From a phage, in the NCBI GenBank assembly GCA_012409925.1, contig GCA_012409925.1_4804.1: a stretch of 60,053 nt of DNA, one strand, 5' to 3'. Shown here one piece after another: positions 29,404 through 33,982 of this stretch. The translations under genes were made by a program, and so were the position numbers. A model generated the notes under the pieces. That model was not told the origin of the DNA. It saw only the letters and a list, made by a program, of their open reading frames with translations, and ran no database searches. Positions within the stretch are counted from its first letter, which is position 1. Each line of letters starts with the position of its first letter.

Positions 29404-29445
29404 GTGAATCGTGGGTCGTGGGTCGTGGGTCGTGGGTCGTGGGTC
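29404..29445. repeat. perfect heptamer tandem repeat (GTGGGTC)x5 preceded by one degenerate unit GTGAATC
   Basis: Direct reading: units at 29411, 29418, 29425, 29432, 29439. Confidence 0.95.
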
Positions 29446-29467
29446 GCTTAGTGCGGCCCTTTATTTT
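29441..29467 (+). terminator. rho-independent terminator overlapping last repeat unit
   Basis: GGGTCGC-ttagt-GCGGCCC (one mismatch) followed by TTTATTTT. Confidence 0.45.
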
Positions 29468-30335: not shown

Positions 30336-30626
30336 TTAAAGGCTTACGATTTTAAAGAAAGTTACTTCGCCGCCGAGTTGCGGGACAGCGATATATTCGC
30401 CGCCGATTTCGGTAATCGTATAGACGAAGCCGTTGATGGTTACGCGGTAGGATACTACGTCCTCGTCGCGATACTTGTAAAGGTCGAGGAGGTTGATCGG
30501 CTCATAAATAGACTCGATAGTCGCGTCTACGTTAGAGAGATAAACGCTCTCTAAGGTTTCGCCAAATACGTTAGAGTTTTCGGAAGTCTCGACGCGAGCG
30601 GAACGGATAGCGGCTAAAGTAATCAT
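30336..30626 (-). CDS. small acidic protein, 96 aa, paralogue of 31262..31546
   Basis: ORF track; AGGAG RBS; net charge about -10; no His/Cys/Trp; shares VY..NVD.TIE and VN.NG(Y/F)...EIG segments with the divergently transcribed paralogue. Confidence 0.6.
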   Translation of the reverse strand: MITLAAIRSARVETSENSNVFGETLESVYLSNVDATIESIYEPINLLDLYKYRDEDVVSYRVTINGFVYTITEIGGEYIAVPQLGGEVTFFKIVSL

Positions 30627-30693
30627 AATAATCTCCTAGCTGGGAGGGCGGGTAGCGACCTATTCGCTACCTCATCCCCTCTCGATATAAAAC

Positions 30694-30722
30694 ATTATAG
30701 TCTTAGTGTACGAAGAAGTAAA
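30694..30722 (-). promoter_or_regulatory. near-consensus sigma70-type promoter (island copy 1)
   Basis: Minus strand reads GTGCTTTACT-17 nt-TATAAT; -35 at 30717-30722, -10 at 30694-30699. Confidence 0.55.
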
Positions 30723-30733
30723 GCACTTTTTCG

Positions 30734-31036
30734 TTATTCTGCGATAAAATATTTATAAGCCTTATCGCCTTCTACGTCGATATACTCGACGATAATTAAC
30801 GCTTCGCCGCGCGGCGTAACCGTCTCGATAAGGGTAACGGCTTCGTCGTCGGTCTTCGCGAATCGGATTGCGCTACGTTCGGCGTATTTAATTTCGTCGA
30901 AGGAGAGGCCGACGAAAGCGACGGCGCGGACCTTAATGGCGCTAGATTCTAGTTCCGCGTTAACGGCGGCGATAAGAGAGCGAACGGTTAAGCGGTCTTC
31001 GTCGTAAGTAAGGATAGAAGAGATTAAAGTGGTCAT
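30734..31036 (-). CDS. small acidic protein, 100 aa
   Basis: ORF track frame; start at ATG 31036 (GGGAG RBS); no His/Cys/Trp/Gln; TAA stop. Confidence 0.55.
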   Translation of the reverse strand: MTTLISSILTYDEDRLTVRSLIAAVNAELESSAIKVRAVAFVGLSFDEIKYAERSAIRFAKTDDEAVTLIETVTPRGEALIIVEYIDVEGDKAYKYFIAE

Positions 31037-31093
31037 AATAAAACTCCCGATGCTATTAGAAGGAAGGGCCATCGCCCGTCTCGATATAAACAA

Positions 31094-31121
31094 GTATACG
31101 CGAGTGTACGAAGAAGTAAAG
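31094..31121 (-). promoter_or_regulatory. near-consensus sigma70-type promoter (island copy 2)
   Basis: Minus strand reads CTTTACT-16 nt-TATACT with the same TTCTTCGTACAC spacer core as copy 1. Confidence 0.5.
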
Positions 31122-31165
31122 AAAAAAAGATAAAATAATTTATCGCATTTTTATCGAAAAAGTGC

Positions 31166-31193
31166 TTTACTTTTTTCTACACTATATTATAAT
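31166..31193 (+). promoter_or_regulatory. near-consensus sigma70-type promoter (island copy 3)
   Basis: AGTGCTTTACT-16 nt-TATAAT; -35 at 31166-31171, -10 at 31188-31193; shares GTGCTTTACT and TACACT with copies 1 and 2. Confidence 0.55.
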
Positions 31194-31261
31194 GTACTCA
31201 TATCGGGACGGGATGAGTTAACGAATAGGTCGTTAACGCCTCTCCCAACTAGGAGTTTAAA

Positions 31262-31546
31262 ATGGCTATTCTTAACGTTTCTTCTATCCGTAACGCTATC
31301 GTCGAGAACTACGGCGTAAAACAAATTTTATCCGAAGTCTACGCCGCGAACGTAGACCAAACTATCGAGGCGGGTGGGGTAACGGTCGCCGAGGCTTTTA
31401 AACTTTACGCGGCGTTACCGGAATCGGACCGCGAAGCCTTCGAAGTAAACGTTAACGGATATTTCTTCGAAGCGGTCGAAATCGGTAATATCTTACTCGT
31501 TATGGGCGAAGAAGAATTTGAGACCTTCTCCCTCGTCGAAGCGTAA
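31262..31546 (+). CDS. small acidic protein, 94 aa, paralogue of 30336..30626
   Basis: ORF track; AGGAG RBS; net charge about -15; no His/Cys/Trp. Confidence 0.6.
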   Translation: MAILNVSSIRNAIVENYGVKQILSEVYAANVDQTIEAGGVTVAEAFKLYAALPESDREAFEVNVNGYFFEAVEIGNILLVMGEEEFETFSLVEA

Positions 31547-31626
31547 GAGAGGATTTTTAGAGCGTCGTGCGCGGCGCTTTAATAAAATTCTTTCGCGCCT
31601 AGCGCCCTAACAAATAGGAGTTTATT

Positions 31627-32253
31627 ATGGTTAGCTTAAATCGTTTCTCGACTAGCGGCGACGTTATCGCAACTAAGACCGCCGACCTCGTTGCATTTTA
31701 TAATGCAAATTCCGGTTCGAAGCCGATTAAGAAATTTGCGGACCGCCGGACCGCCGAGACTCGCGTAATCGCGTTAATCGAGTCCTTAAACGCGCTCGAT
31801 GAGCCATCCAATGAATCGCCCATTCCCGACGCGAAGCCGCGCGAGGAAGTGTCCAGCGATGTAAAAACGCATAAGGCGCGTGCGGTCGTTAAAAAGGCTG
31901 AGCCGACCCAGGAAGAACTCGACGCGATGAGCGATGAAGAATATGAAGCCTTCGTTAAGAGCGGCTTAAACGATAGTGCAAATTGCGTAGTACAAAATGG
32001 AACTCCTTCCCATCGCCGTTCGAATAGCGAAGGTATTGCAAAAAGTTGGGATAATAAGGAAGTGGCGCAAAAGCGTCTTACCCGTAACGGCGTTATGGTC
32101 GAGGGTGTAGGCGAGTTCAAATCGGTCCGCGCAGCATTCGCCGCGCTGGGCTTACCGGACAGCAAGCATATTCGCTTCCGCATGAAGCTTAAAGAAGCTG
32201 GACGCTTGAACTTCGAGTTCGGCAACAAGTCCTTCACCTTCCAGATTATCTAA
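31627..32253 (+). CDS. hypothetical protein, 208 aa
   Basis: ORF track; AGGAG RBS; composition switches mid-gene from the island dialect to ordinary coding. Confidence 0.5.
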   Translation: MVSLNRFSTSGDVIATKTADLVAFYNANSGSKPIKKFADRRTAETRVIALIESLNALDEPSNESPIPDAKPREEVSSDVKTHKARAVVKKAEPTQEELDAMSDEEYEAFVKSGLNDSANCVVQNGTPSHRRSNSEGIAKSWDNKEVAQKRLTRNGVMVEGVGEFKSVRAAFAALGLPDSKHIRFRMKLKEAGRLNFEFGNKSFTFQII

Positions 32254-32260
32254 TCAAATG

Positions 32261-32285
32261 GCGGCCCTTCGAGGTCGCTTTTCAT
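32261..32285 (+). terminator. terminator-like hairpin
   Basis: GCGGCC-cttcga-GGTCGC (one G-U pair) followed by TTTTCAT. Confidence 0.35.
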
Positions 32286-32303
32286 AGTGCAAATTGGTGG
32301 CTT

Positions 32304-32567
32304 ATGAACACGCTTATTCTCATCGCTACGTTGTCCATCGGAAGTGGTCGCACCTTATCGCTGTACGACCATAGTGCAAATTGCGCTTACCCTACGCGCG
32401 TTGCGGCAATAGTTAATAGTGCAAATCGAATGCTATTCGAGACTTGTTGGCGGGTCGATAACGAGAAAGGGCGCATCATCTTAGGTTATAGTGCGAATCT
32501 GCTGGTGGAGTCGTTCGATTGGACGGTTGAAGGTCGTAAATTGTTACGTAAGGTGACTAAAAGATGA
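32304..32567 (+). CDS. hypothetical protein, 87 aa (carries three in-frame motif copies)
   Basis: ORF track; GGTGG RBS; ATAGTGCAAAT-type motif occurs three times in frame as Ser-Ala-Asn, so coding status is uncertain. Confidence 0.35.
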   Translation: MNTLILIATLSIGSGRTLSLYDHSANCAYPTRVAAIVNSANRMLFETCWRVDNEKGRIILGYSANLLVESFDWTVEGRKLLRKVTKR

Positions 32568-32681
32568 CTTATAATAATACACTTTCTAACGCGTTTATGG
32601 TTGTAACCTTCCCCGTCGTATTACCGATGGCCCTAGAAGTGGAGAAAATGTGTTCTAGGGCCGTTTTATAGTGCAAATTGG

Positions 32682-33155
32682 CTAGTGGCGGGAGAATTGC
32701 TCGCCTTCTTTGGCCGCCTCTCCGAAATCCTTGTAGAAATCGTCCATGGAACGGCCCATTTTACTATTGCCGTTTTCATCAATCATCGTGATGCCGTAGA
32801 TGATGTTCAGTTCACGAATAGCATTAAGCTTGGCTGACGCCGCGACTTCTGGATCACGCACAAGCTTGACCAAATTGTGAATTGCACCTTTTACGCTCCA
32901 CAAATCCTTGAGTGGCATCTCTTCCATACGCTTTTTGAAGCGCATCTTGTAGTATGGATTGCGTTGCGTGCAAAGGATTCGCTGGCCAGTGTAGTTATCC
33001 GTTGCAACTTCCATTCCAAATACTAGTGCAAAAGCTGCGCGCATGTCATGGCCCTGAATAACAAGGTCAATGAACTCATCGAATAAAGCCTGATTGTGCT
33101 CTGCAAATCGCGGGTCTTCAAAGTCTTCAGGCATCGCTACATAATCTTGACTCAT
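32682..33155 (-). CDS. hypothetical protein, 157 aa (small-terminase candidate, speculative)
   Basis: ORF track frame from ATG 33155 (MSQDYVAMPEDFEDPRF...); ordinary codon usage; start codon abuts three tandem motif copies. Confidence 0.4.
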   Translation of the reverse strand: MSQDYVAMPEDFEDPRFAEHNQALFDEFIDLVIQGHDMRAAFALVFGMEVATDNYTGQRILCTQRNPYYKMRFKKRMEEMPLKDLWSVKGAIHNLVKLVRDPEVAASAKLNAIRELNIIYGITMIDENGNSKMGRSMDDFYKDFGEAAKEGEQFSRH

Positions 33156-33280
33156 AGTGCAAAATCCCATAGTGCAAATTAATAGTGTGAATTATACAAT
33201 GGATGGACATTATATTCAAGTGCAGATTGATGTTCATTATGGCTATAAACATACACAAATCATAGTGCTGAATGAATAGC

Positions 33281-33874
33281 GGACCGTGGTGCGTGGTGTA
33301 CTGTTTGATACGTATAAAATAAATCCATCCCTTTTGCCGCTTGTTATGCAAATCAATGACTTAGCCGCTGCTGGCTGGTTGAAGCGTATCATGACGTATC
33401 ATCCGTATTGCCGCAAGTCTTTGTTTTTACTTATATCTTACGGATAATACGTATAAATATAAGTTTAGTATAAGTATGAGGATGTAGAAAAAAAATTAAT
33501 TTAAATGTTTTTAAAATGGAGTTAATTAATTTTTAGAATTATTCTGGTTACAATAAGAAAAAATGGCGTATCATCCGTATCATCCGTATGAGTGTACCAG
33601 TAGAATCCAGGCGCGGCGCACCTTACAGCCATGATACGTCTCAATACGGCCAAAAACCTATCCGTAAGAGTGTACGCATCAACCAAAGAATCCAGGCGCG
33701 GCGCACTCTTCCACACCACACACCACGGTTCAATCTCCAAAATCCACACACTAAAAGTCACAATCACCGTATCATTCTCCAAAAATAAATCCAAATTTCC
33801 ATTTTATTTATTATTTTCATCCACAATATCCTAAATTCCATCCGTATCAACCAAGCCTCAACCCACCACGGTCC
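33281..33874. repeat. iteron cluster B: ATCCGTATC-type repeats, 19-bp direct repeat and AT-rich block, bracketed by 11-bp inverted repeat
   Basis: GCGTATCATCCGTATCATCCGTA at 33567-33589 identical to 17181-17203; further copies at 33385-33410, 33437-33457, 33631-33649, 33659-33668, 33766-33777 and 33841-33851; GAATCCAGGCGCGGCGCAC at 33603 and 33688; GGACCGTGGTG (33281) / CACCACGGTCC (33864). Confidence 0.8.
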
Positions 33875-33982
33875 ACGCCACTCACTTCAAAATTTCCATC
33901 AAAAACGACAAAAGGCCGCATAAAGCGACCAATTGTACACGTCCCATTATTCAAAACACGTAAAACAGTGTCCGTTTATTTG

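What the first reader, a model, noticed from the sequence alone, without database searches (positions are those of the whole stretch)
30627..31261. Covarying stem-loops in the 5' leaders of the paralogous genes
The leader of 31262..31546 contains GTTAACGA-atagg-TCGTTAAC (31217-31237); the leader of 30336..30626 (mRNA sense) contains GGTAGCGA-atagg-TCGCTACC (30651-30671). The loop ATAGG is identical while the stem carries compensatory changes that preserve pairing; both are preceded by GGGATGAG and followed by a CCCTCCC...CTAGGAG Shine-Dalgarno context. Covariation argues for a functional RNA structure such as a translational operator, a processing site or a protein-binding hairpin.
Basis: seen in the sequence. 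Interest (0 to 1): 0.65.

Follow-up and report, generated by a model that had tools for sequence, protein, structure and literature searches.

The report
Phage early-mRNA leader stem-loops
Two copies of a small RNA hairpin sit just downstream of two duplicated strong early promoters in the terminal repeat of an E. coli Wifcevirus phage; it looks like a real but ordinary structured mRNA leader, and its exact job (mRNA stability or translation control versus a protein-binding site) is not settled.

Summary
The window holds exactly two 8-bp hairpins with an AUAGG loop, at 31217-31237 (+) and 30651-30671 (-). They differ by two fully compensated base pairs.

The window is a Wifcevirus, a PB1-related E. 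coli myovirus. The locus lies in its direct terminal repeat. The hairpins occupy +18..+38 of 62-nt leaders of two paralogous sigma-70 promoter-leader cassettes, P1 and P3. A third cassette, P2, with its own 100-aa gene, lies between them and carries a different small hairpin.

Across about 50 Wifcevirus genomes the promoter, the first 17 transcribed bases and the hairpin are almost invariant. The C-rich spacer after the hairpin is hypervariable, yet it is always predicted to pair with the G-rich start of the transcript. Single-base stem variants are two G·U wobbles and three mismatches. The same P3 leader drives at least three different first genes.

There is no Rfam match and no homologue outside the genus. 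Related Kylevirus leaders also show compensated 5' hairpins.

Best reading: a selected cis-acting leader structure in a portable early expression cassette. A loop-specific binding site, RNase III processing and a DNA palindrome are not excluded.

Interest is modest.

The parts
31166..31193 (+). P3 sigma-70 promoter: -35 TTTACT at 31166-31171, 16-nt spacer, -10 TATAAT at 31188-31193, with an A/T-rich upstream region
31200..31261 (+). P3 leader of 62 nt. The start is predicted at A31200, the seventh base after the -10 and preceded by a pyrimidine. The start point is inferred, not measured.
   Evidence: inference from E. coli start-site rules
31205..31212 (+). G-rich 5' strand (GGGACGGG) of the predicted outer helix
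31217..31237 (+). P3 inner hairpin, GUUAACGA-AUAGG-UCGUUAAC, at +18..+38
31239..31246 (+). C-rich 3' strand (CCUCUCCC) of the predicted outer helix. This stretch is hypervariable between genomes.
31250..31255 (+). Shine-Dalgarno sequence UAGGAG of gene 31262..31546
   Evidence: ribosome-binding site annotated in Mansfield
30694..30722 (-). P1 sigma-70 promoter: -35 TTTACT at 30722-30717, 17-nt spacer, -10 TATAAT at 30699-30694
30627..30688 (-). P1 leader of 62 nt, with the start predicted at about 30688 (or 30686)
   Evidence: inference
30672..30683 (-). G-rich 5' strand (GAGAGGGGAUGA) of the predicted outer helix
30651..30671 (-). P1 inner hairpin, GGUAGCGA-AUAGG-UCGCUACC, at +18..+38
30642..30650 (-). 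C-rich 3' strand (CGCCCUCCC) of the predicted outer helix. This stretch is hypervariable between genomes.
30633..30638 (-). Shine-Dalgarno sequence UAGGAG of gene 30336..30626
31093..31120 (-). P2 promoter, the third paralogous cassette: -35 TTTACT at 31120-31115 and -10 TATACT at 31098-31093. It drives gene 30734..31036.
31066..31077 (-). P2 leader mini-hairpin GGGC-GAUG-GCCC. Mansfield and L186 have a 7-bp hairpin of different sequence at the same place.
30336..30626 (-). 96-aa acidic early protein, first gene of the P1 unit. It has no family assignment.
30734..31036 (-). 100-aa early protein, the gene of the P2 unit. P2 transcripts would read through the P1 leader.
31262..31546 (+). 94-aa acidic early protein, first gene of the P3 unit in this phage. 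Other Wifceviruses have a different gene here or none.

Best explanation
The two hairpins are the tops of an extended, imperfect RNA stem-loop spanning about +6 to +47. This stem-loop forms in the 62-nt 5' leaders of immediate-early transcripts. The transcripts are made by host sigma-70 RNA polymerase from duplicated promoter-leader cassettes in the phage's direct terminal repeat.

Each cassette contains an A/T-rich upstream element, GTGCTTTACTT..TACAC..TATAAT, a conserved purine-rich start AUAUCG(A/G)GA(G/C)GGGAUGA, the 8-bp AUAGG hairpin, a C-rich spacer and a UAGGAG Shine-Dalgarno sequence.

The structure most likely acts in cis. It folds as soon as it is transcribed and pairs the SD-like, G-rich start of the RNA with the anti-SD-like, C-rich spacer. 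This gives every gene placed behind the cassette the same self-contained leader. The result would be dependable stability and translation of early mRNAs whatever coding sequence follows.

Shown: the promoters as consensus matches, the hairpins, their compensated differences, their conservation across the genus, and the portability of the cassette.

Inferred: the transcription start points, folding in vivo, the outer helix, and the effect on stability or translation.
For: Identity and location:
- The window is a Wifcevirus and the locus lies in the terminal repeat.
- In the related Pbunavirus 14-1, early transcription comes from host sigma-70-like promoters, and one at the genome start is strong in E. 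coli (PMC10914365).
- There are three paralogous promoter cassettes against 0.02 expected by chance.

Inner stem:
- 97.9% of cells are paired, with two doubly changed pairs and the A-U / G·U / G-C series at one pair.
- P is about 0.002-0.004 under independent substitutions.
- Fold z-scores are -2.0 and -2.3.

Extended structure:
- Every natural leader variant folds into hairpin plus outer helix, at -15 to -22 kcal/mol.
- Five to seven bases of +5..+16 are paired to the spacer at P > 0.5 in all 9 variants tested. In the leader alone the SD is mostly unpaired, with P(unpaired) 0.65-0.96.
- The spacer is the most polymorphic part of the cassette but stays C-rich.
- The L178-type variant loses one inner pair but gains a continuous outer helix: -20.4 against -21.3 kcal/mol.

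Independent examples:
- P2 has a different 5' hairpin that changes register and sequence yet persists.
- In the Kylevirus gene-7 leader, Kyle and PA1 differ by two compensated pairs plus one G·U to G-C change.

Portability and RNA sense:
- The same P3 leader precedes a 94-aa, a 103-105-aa or the 208-aa gene.
- G·U pairs occur only in the mRNA sense.
Against: - No transcriptome exists for any Wifcevirus, so the start sites and the fold are predictions.
- With the predicted start, 5-7 bases remain single-stranded at the 5' end. That is longer than classical 5'-terminal stabilisers tolerate (own knowledge of the Emory/Bouvet/Belasco work).
- An internal stem-loop is a poor obstacle to RNase E scanning (PMC11194081).
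- The outer helix is not significantly better than random window 12-mers for any single variant (p = 0.06-0.34), and RNAalifold does not recover it.
- When 36-40 nt of coding sequence are added, the predicted ensemble pairs the SD with the C-rich spacer instead. The 'SD kept open' step therefore depends on co-transcriptional folding.
- Two homologous Kylevirus promoters have short unstructured leaders, so the structure is not required for expression from this promoter family.
- The loop and the top three pairs are identical in both copies and in about 50 genomes. A purely structural role does not require that.
- Three natural variants carry stem mismatches.
Confidence: 0.4

Rival explanations
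1. The hairpin is a sequence-specific binding site, read through its invariant AUAGG loop and CGA/UCG closing pairs, for a phage or host protein that co-regulates the two divergent early units. The protein could shut off early translation, alter mRNA decay, or modify elongating RNA polymerase in the manner of lambda nut or HK022 put.
For: - The loop and the three closing pairs are identical in both paralogous copies. The loop is unchanged and the closing pairs nearly so (one Bas98 change) in all roughly 50 genomes, while the distal stem covaries and the flank varies.
- There are exactly two copies, one per divergent unit. This resembles nutL/nutR and putL/putR (own knowledge).
- The Kylevirus gene-6 leader hairpin, CGG-AAUAGA-CCG, has a similar loop and is identical in Kyle and PA1.
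Against: - Identity of an 11-nt core between copies that are about 78% identical is expected by chance at about 0.07 (own estimate from A1). Gene conversion between cassettes is evident.
- The Kylevirus similarity is ambiguous. MAFFT aligns Kyle's GGAAUAGA with Wifcevirus GGGAUGAG rather than with the loop, and AAUAG mini-hairpins are common by chance.
- No lambda-type boxA lies next to the hairpins.
- AUAGG is not a GNRA-like pentaloop.
- No strong terminator inside the units needs to be overcome.
- The early proteins are acidic and have no RNA-binding family.
- The 69-aa 'transcriptional regulator' (phrog_10377) is absent from most genomes that keep the hairpins.
- P2 lacks the element.
Confidence: 0.2
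2. The extended stem-loop is an RNase III processing site that trims the leader, as at T7 R0.3 or in the lambda N leader. Cleavage would set a uniform 5' end and alter translation or stability. It would also cut P2 read-through transcripts upstream of the P1 gene.
For: - The composite helix has an internal loop between an 8-bp upper stem and a 4-7-bp lower stem, in an early phage leader.
- P2 transcripts must read through the P1 hairpin, because no terminator lies between them.
- There is precedent in coliphage early mRNAs (own knowledge).
Against: - Only about 12-15 bp are paired in total. Typical E. coli RNase III substrates have about 20 bp (own knowledge).
- The lower helix is poorly supported statistically.
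- There is no Rfam match.
Confidence: 0.12
3. There is no selected RNA function. The palindrome persists and looks 'compensated' because of hairpin-templated repair of quasi-palindromes and gene conversion between the duplicated cassettes.
For: - The cassettes clearly exchange sequence. The P1 spacer of this window resembles the P3 type, and the P3 variant GTTAGCGA carries the P1 base.
- F13 has an extra cassette copy.
- Orthologue changes are two wobbles against three mismatches, as expected without selection.
- Mismatched variants occur in viable natural phages.
Against: - The hairpin is as conserved as the promoter, while the adjacent spacer is free to vary.
- Independent hairpins in P2 and in Kylevirus leaders are also compensated.
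- The L178-type change is offset elsewhere in the structure.
Confidence: 0.1
4. The element works as double-stranded DNA. It would be a 21-bp palindromic operator at +18..+38, bound by a dimeric repressor that blocks the two early promoters, or a cruciform.
For: - It is a perfect 8-bp inverted repeat with a 5-bp spacer, of operator size, just downstream of two strong promoters.
- Some genomes encode a small 'transcriptional regulator' in the P1 unit.
Against: - The two sites in one genome differ symmetrically at 2 of 8 half-site positions. Recognition by a single protein does not predict this.
- G·T-type variants break the DNA symmetry but keep RNA pairing.
- The candidate regulator is missing from most genomes that have the hairpins.
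- P2 shares the promoter but has no palindrome.
Confidence: 0.08

Closest known systems
5'-terminal stem-loop mRNA stabilisers of E. coli (ompA hp1, papA) and the 5' stem-loop of T7 late (phi10) transcripts
   Same: A stable hairpin lies near the 5' end of an abundant mRNA, upstream of a strong SD. The function needs structure rather than sequence, which fits the compensated stems here and in P2 and Kylevirus.
   Different: The known elements begin within a few nucleotides of the 5' end. Here 5-7 unpaired bases are predicted before the outer helix and 17 before the well-supported inner hairpin. The loop is sequence-conserved. No half-life data exist.
Lambda nutL/nutR boxB and HK022 putL/putR
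   Same: There are two copies, one in each divergent early transcription unit, close to the promoters. The loop is conserved and the stems differ by compensated changes.
   Different: The stem is 8 bp, not 5 bp. AUAGG is not a GNRA-like pentaloop. There is no adjacent boxA, no N-like arginine-rich protein, no obvious terminators to override, and a single hairpin rather than the two-hairpin put fold.
RNase III sites in coliphage early leaders (T7 R0.3, lambda N leader)
   Same: It is an imperfect helix with an internal loop in an untranslated early leader, and it is also intercistronic for read-through transcripts.
   Different: The helix is much shorter, at about 12-15 bp. No cleavage data exist.
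PeSL promoter-stem-loop cassettes of T4-type phages (PMC2839356, PMC4122927)
   Same: These are repeated sigma-70 early promoter plus stem-loop modules that flank small orphan genes in a plastic region. Gene gain, loss and replacement occur at the repeats.
   Different: In PeSLs the stem-loop is a terminator upstream of the promoter. Here it lies downstream, inside the leader, and has no U-tract.

Membership tests
5'-terminal stem-loop mRNA stabiliser (ompA/papA type) | The stem-loop begins within about 0-4 unpaired nucleotides of the transcript's 5' end | tested here: inconclusive
   With the predicted start sites (A31200; A30688 or A30686), bases 1-5 are unpaired at P of 0.5 or more in all 9 variants. 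The start sites are not measured.
5'-terminal stem-loop mRNA stabiliser (ompA/papA type) | Structure, not sequence, is conserved | tested here: met
   Two compensated pairs separate P1 and P3. Compensated hairpins also occur in P2 and in the Kylevirus gene-7 leader. The loop, however, is invariant.
5'-terminal stem-loop mRNA stabiliser (ompA/papA type) | Lengthens mRNA half-life in an RNase E / RppH-dependent way | not testable with these tools
   Needs half-life measurements.
Lambda-type nut site (boxA + boxB) | boxB: a 5-bp stem with a GNRA-like pentaloop (GAAAA / GAAGA / GACAA) | tested here: not met
   The stem is 8 bp and the loop is AUAGG.
Lambda-type nut site (boxA + boxB) | A boxA (CGCUCUUA-like) a few nucleotides upstream of boxB | tested here: not met
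   No match with one mismatch or fewer lies within either leader.
RNase III processing site | About two helical turns (roughly 20 bp) of mostly continuous double-stranded RNA | tested here: not met
   There are 8 bp plus 4-7 bp separated by an internal loop. Shorter substrates exist, so this lowers the possibility but does not exclude it.
RNase III processing site | Cleavage by RNase III in vivo or in vitro | not testable with these tools
   No data.
Intrinsic terminator / attenuator | A GC-rich hairpin followed directly by a U-tract | tested here: not met
   CGCCC... or GCCUC... follows the stems, and the terminator scan lists neither hairpin.
Palindromic DNA operator | The same half-site sequence at all sites bound by one regulator, and the regulator gene co-occurring with the sites | tested here: not met
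   Half-sites differ at 2 of 8 positions between the two sites. The only annotated regulator (69 aa) is absent from most genomes with the hairpins.
PeSL cassette (T4-type phages) | The stem-loop acts as a terminator upstream of an early promoter | tested here: not met
   The stem-loop is at +18..+38 downstream of the promoter and has no U-tract.
Any curated Rfam family | A score at or above the family's gathering threshold | tested here: not met
   There are no hits at gathering thresholds in the whole window. Only chance-level hits (E of 1.3 or more) appear in 30550-31350.

The most novel reading that the evidence does not exclude
The AUAGG hairpin is a dedicated recognition element, read through its invariant loop by a Wifcevirus early protein or a host factor. 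Recognition would switch the leader between an 'open' fold and a 'closed' fold. In the open fold the G-rich start pairs with the C-rich spacer and the SD is free. In the closed fold the spacer CUCC pairs with the SD GGAG, and the hairpin's 5' arm pairs with the first codons. This would time the shut-off of both divergent immediate-early units in a phage reported to complete its cycle within minutes.
Probability: 0.15. Interest if true: 0.6.

Novelty: new member of a known kind. Interest (0 to 1): 0.3.

Why it matters
Wifceviruses are hardly studied. A paper read here reports unusually fast replication and notes that no regulatory work has been done on them (10.1101/2024.09.12.612763). This analysis defines their immediate-early expression cassettes: three strong sigma-70 promoters in the terminal repeat, each with a structured leader. 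These are concrete targets for 5' end mapping and reporter tests. The cassettes could also serve as compact, strong, portable expression modules in E. coli. The hairpin itself is an ordinary kind of element. It would become more interesting only if the loop proves to be a specific binding site or part of an on/off switch.

Tried and rejected
- **Rfam.** Gathering and E-value modes gave nothing.
- **Promoter-only scan of viral contigs.** The pattern was too unspecific; nearly all 120 hits were chance.
- **Other collection scans.** I ran hairpin-anchored or promoter-anchored scans of viral contigs, metagenomes and bacterial genomes. They returned only Wifcevirus contigs (one is mislabelled as a Xanthomonas pisi contig) plus chance hits, so no deeper homologues exist for covariation analysis.
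- **Covariance model.** A model of the hairpin was searched against the window and 13 related loci. It found only the two known copies, and the weak hits (E of 0.4 or more) are not convincing.
- **Kylevirus 'AAUAG' loop similarity.** The alignment is ambiguous and such mini-hairpins are common by chance.
- **Outer helix.** Tested against random 12-mers and shuffles, it is not significant for any single variant. RNAalifold does not recover it.
- **Mini-ORF AUG-AGN-UAR overlapping the 5' arm.** Rejected as a conserved feature, because the AUG is missing in four genomes.
- **Hairpin 5' arm versus first codons.** The complementarity is significant only for the window's P3/94-aa pair (p = 0.007). 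Other combinations and cross-controls are similar to each other, at p = 0.03-0.44.
- **Function of the early proteins.** There are no Pfam or PHROG functions and no PDB sequence relatives. The NusA hit at E = 0.25 is not significant. The AlphaFold model of the 96-aa protein has pLDDT 56, so I did no fold search.
- **First fuzzy-regex harvest.** I mis-specified the pattern and redid it.

Full report
**What the window is**

The 2.4 kb around the finding is 91-96% identical to 29 GenBank phages of the genus Wifcevirus, including WFC, WFH, ECML-117, FEC19, Mansfield and Bas98-101. In phage Mansfield the matching stretch lies inside the 3.7-kb direct terminal repeat predicted by PhageTerm. Wifceviruses are distant relatives of the Pseudomonas PB1-like Pbunaviruses. 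Almost nothing is known about their gene regulation (10.1101/2024.09.12.612763). The 208-aa protein encoded next to the finding has homologues in Pbunavirus, Kylevirus, Myosmarvirus and Xanthomonas phages. In Pbunavirus 14-1, early transcription starts at host sigma-70-like promoters (PMC10914365).

**Checking the observation**

They are the only hairpins with an ATAGG loop in the window. The flanking GGGATGAG and the core CGAATAGGTCG occur exactly only at these two places.

The four stem differences form two compensated base pairs. Four independent substitutions would leave eight Watson-Crick pairs with a probability of about 0.002-0.004. Predicted folds are more stable than shuffles, with z-scores of -2.0 and -2.3.

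**Anatomy**

The interval 30627-31261 is not simply two leaders. It holds three paralogous promoter cassettes that share GTGCTTTACTTnTTCnTACAC, against 0.02 matches expected by chance. Each has a near-consensus -10 and an A/T-rich upstream region.

| Cassette | Strand | Gene driven |
|---|---|---|
| P1 | - | 96-aa gene, 30336..30626 |
| P2 | - | 100-aa gene, 30734..31036, previously overlooked |
| P3 | + | 94-aa gene, 31262..31546 |

E. coli start-site rules put the starts at about 30688, 31087 and 31200. All three RNAs would then begin AUAUCG(A/G)GA(G/C)GG.

In P1 and P3 the hairpin occupies +18..+38 of a 62-nt leader. It is followed by a C-rich spacer and a UAGGAG Shine-Dalgarno sequence. 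P2 instead carries GGGC-GAUG-GCCC at +11..+22. The start sites are inferred; no transcriptome exists.

**Comparative evidence**

I collected the cassettes from about 50 genomes: GenBank records, IMG/VR and metagenome contigs, and Logan/ENA assemblies.

Conservation is uneven. The promoter, the first 17 transcribed bases and the hairpin are almost invariant. The 12-15 bases between the hairpin and the SD are the most polymorphic part of the cassette.

Single-base variants of the inner stem are:
- A-U to G·U in P3 (ECML-117, RCIP0319, F13, SP13, Ro157lw);
- U-A to U·G in P3 (Eco4M-7);
- A·C in P3 in one contig;
- C·A in P1 (Bas98);
- A·A in P1 in four contigs.

That is two wobbles and three mismatches, which carries no statistical weight. 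The A·A variant also has a one-base deletion that makes the outer helix continuous, and its predicted energy barely changes: -20.4 against -21.3 kcal/mol.

**The outer helix**

In every variant the G-rich +5..+16 is predicted to pair with the spacer. The spacer stays C-rich although its sequence changes.

This outer helix is not significant against random 12-mers for any single variant. RNAalifold does not recover it either. I treat it as plausible, not shown.

**Independent parallels**

The P2 hairpin has a different sequence and register in Mansfield and in one Logan contig, yet it persists.

Pantoea phages Kyle and PA1 (Kylevirus) have the same promoter family. Two of their four leaders carry 5' hairpins. 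One of these differs between the two phages by two compensated pairs plus one G·U to G-C change. The other two leaders are short and unstructured.

Structured 5' leaders are therefore recurrent in this promoter family but not obligatory.

**Portability**

The P3 leader is followed by different first genes in different genomes:
- the 94-aa gene in this window;
- a 103-105-aa gene in WFC-type genomes;
- the 208-aa gene directly in ECML-117, Eco4M-7 and RCIP0319.

The junctions fall at a repeated ribosome-binding sequence. F13 has an extra copy of the P1 cassette. The hairpin therefore belongs to the promoter module, not to 'the paralogous genes'. The 96-aa and 94-aa proteins are indeed distant paralogues.

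**Mechanism**

An RNA-level structure is favoured for three reasons:
- the stem differences are compensated;
- wobble pairs exist only in the mRNA sense;
- the two palindromes in one genome differ symmetrically, which a single DNA-binding dimer would not require.

The simplest role is a self-contained, cis-acting leader fold that gives all early genes the same stable, translatable 5' end.

Several results count against the classical '5'-terminal stabiliser' version of this:
- Five to seven bases are predicted to remain single-stranded at the 5' end.
- Internal stem-loops are poor obstacles for RNase E (PMC11194081).
- With coding sequence added, the predicted ensemble pairs the SD with the spacer.

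The invariant loop keeps a trans-factor model alive, but it could equally reflect gene conversion between the cassettes. RNase III processing is possible but the helix is short. A DNA operator is unlikely, and the only annotated regulator (69 aa, phrog_10377) is absent from most genomes that keep the hairpins.

**Comparison with known systems**

There is no Rfam family and no homologue outside Wifcevirus.

| Known system | How this element differs |
|---|---|
| ompA / T7 phi10 5' stem-loops | Farther from the 5' end |
| lambda nut / HK022 put | boxB and boxA features are not met |
| RNase III sites in T7 and lambda leaders | Too short |
| PeSL cassettes of T4-type phages | There the stem-loop is an upstream terminator |

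**Verdict**

This is a real, conserved, probably functional leader stem-loop of a little-studied phage genus. It is a new member of a familiar class, and its function is unresolved. Interest is modest.

Noticed in passing
window 31700-33179 (+ strand): Nine same-strand copies of ATAGTGCAAAT (one mismatch or fewer) are clustered in 1.5 kb of the terminal repeat. The whole window has 11 against 1.7 expected. They lie inside and around the 208-aa and 87-aa genes and reach the start of the 162-aa gene, which Mansfield annotates as terminase small subunit. This could be a protein-binding array for packaging or regulation.
   Followed up: partly
window 29409-29459: There is a perfect heptamer tandem repeat, TCGTGGG x 5.4, running into a terminator-like hairpin (29441-29459). 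It sits in a ~700-bp ORF-poor stretch that contains the inner boundary of the terminal repeat (about 29,850 by projection from Mansfield).
   Followed up: no
window 33170-33980: This ~800-bp ORF-poor region contains the projected physical genome end, at about 33,515 by comparison with Mansfield position 1. It holds an exact 20-nt direct repeat, AGAATCCAGGCGCGGCGCAC, at 33602 and 33687, CGTATCATC x 2.6 at 33567, and several inverted repeats.
   Followed up: no
window 31246-31268 and 31611-31633: The ribosome-binding sequence CAA(C/A)TAGGAGTTTA(A/T)(A/T)ATGG is repeated ahead of the 94-aa and 208-aa genes. ECML-117, Eco4M-7, RCIP0319 and Ro157lw lack the 94-aa gene exactly between the two copies. 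Other genomes carry a different 103-105-aa gene there. This looks like module shuffling by recombination at repeated regulatory sequence.
   Followed up: partly
L127 (phage F13) 1727 and 2030, - strand: F13 carries a second complete P1 promoter-leader cassette. In that copy the start codon is replaced (…AATATTACGCG…), so the cassettes themselves duplicate.
   Followed up: no
window 31213-31221 (+) and 30675-30667 (-): A two-codon mini-ORF overlaps the 5' arm: AUG AGU UAA in P3 and AUG AGG UAG in P1. It follows an SD-like purine run. Both 5'-arm substitutions fall on third codon positions and keep the stop codon. The AUG is absent in four Logan contigs (GGGGAGAGGAAGCGA), so it is not conserved.
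   Followed up: yes
window 31264-31277 versus 31217-31229: Codons 2-5 of the 94-aa gene are complementary to the hairpin's 5' arm plus loop (11 bp with one bulge, -10.4 kcal/mol, p = 0.007 against random 45-mers). In folds that include the coding sequence, spacer CUCC also pairs with SD GGAG. This could be an alternative 'closed' conformation. Other leader-gene combinations are not significant.
   Followed up: partly
window 31037-31072 (- strand): In the P2 leader, the AUG of GGGCGAUGG is in frame with the 100-aa gene and open, giving a 12-codon N-terminal extension. SP13 and F13 annotate this longer form. A 1-nt deletion in Ro157lw shifts the frame, so the extension is not conserved.
   Followed up: partly
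L196 (NZ_JPLE01000151.1, 'Xanthomonas pisi DSM 18956' contig of 687 bp): Around the P3 promoter-leader cassette this short contig of a bacterial genome assembly is identical, across the ~160 nt inspected, to the WFC-type Wifcevirus sequence (the same sequence as metagenome contig L152). It is most likely phage contamination of that assembly.
   Followed up: no
window 31627-32253: The 208-aa early protein (phrog_4730) is conserved from Wifcevirus to Pbunavirus, Kylevirus, Myosmarvirus, Xanthomonas and Aeromonas phages. Its C-terminal motif LPDSKHIRFR(M/L)KLKEA is nearly invariant (RMKLKEA in two of the three aligned sequences, RLKLKEA in the third). Its function is unknown. A weak PDB sequence hit to the NusA N-terminal domain (E = 0.25) is not significant.
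   Followed up: partly
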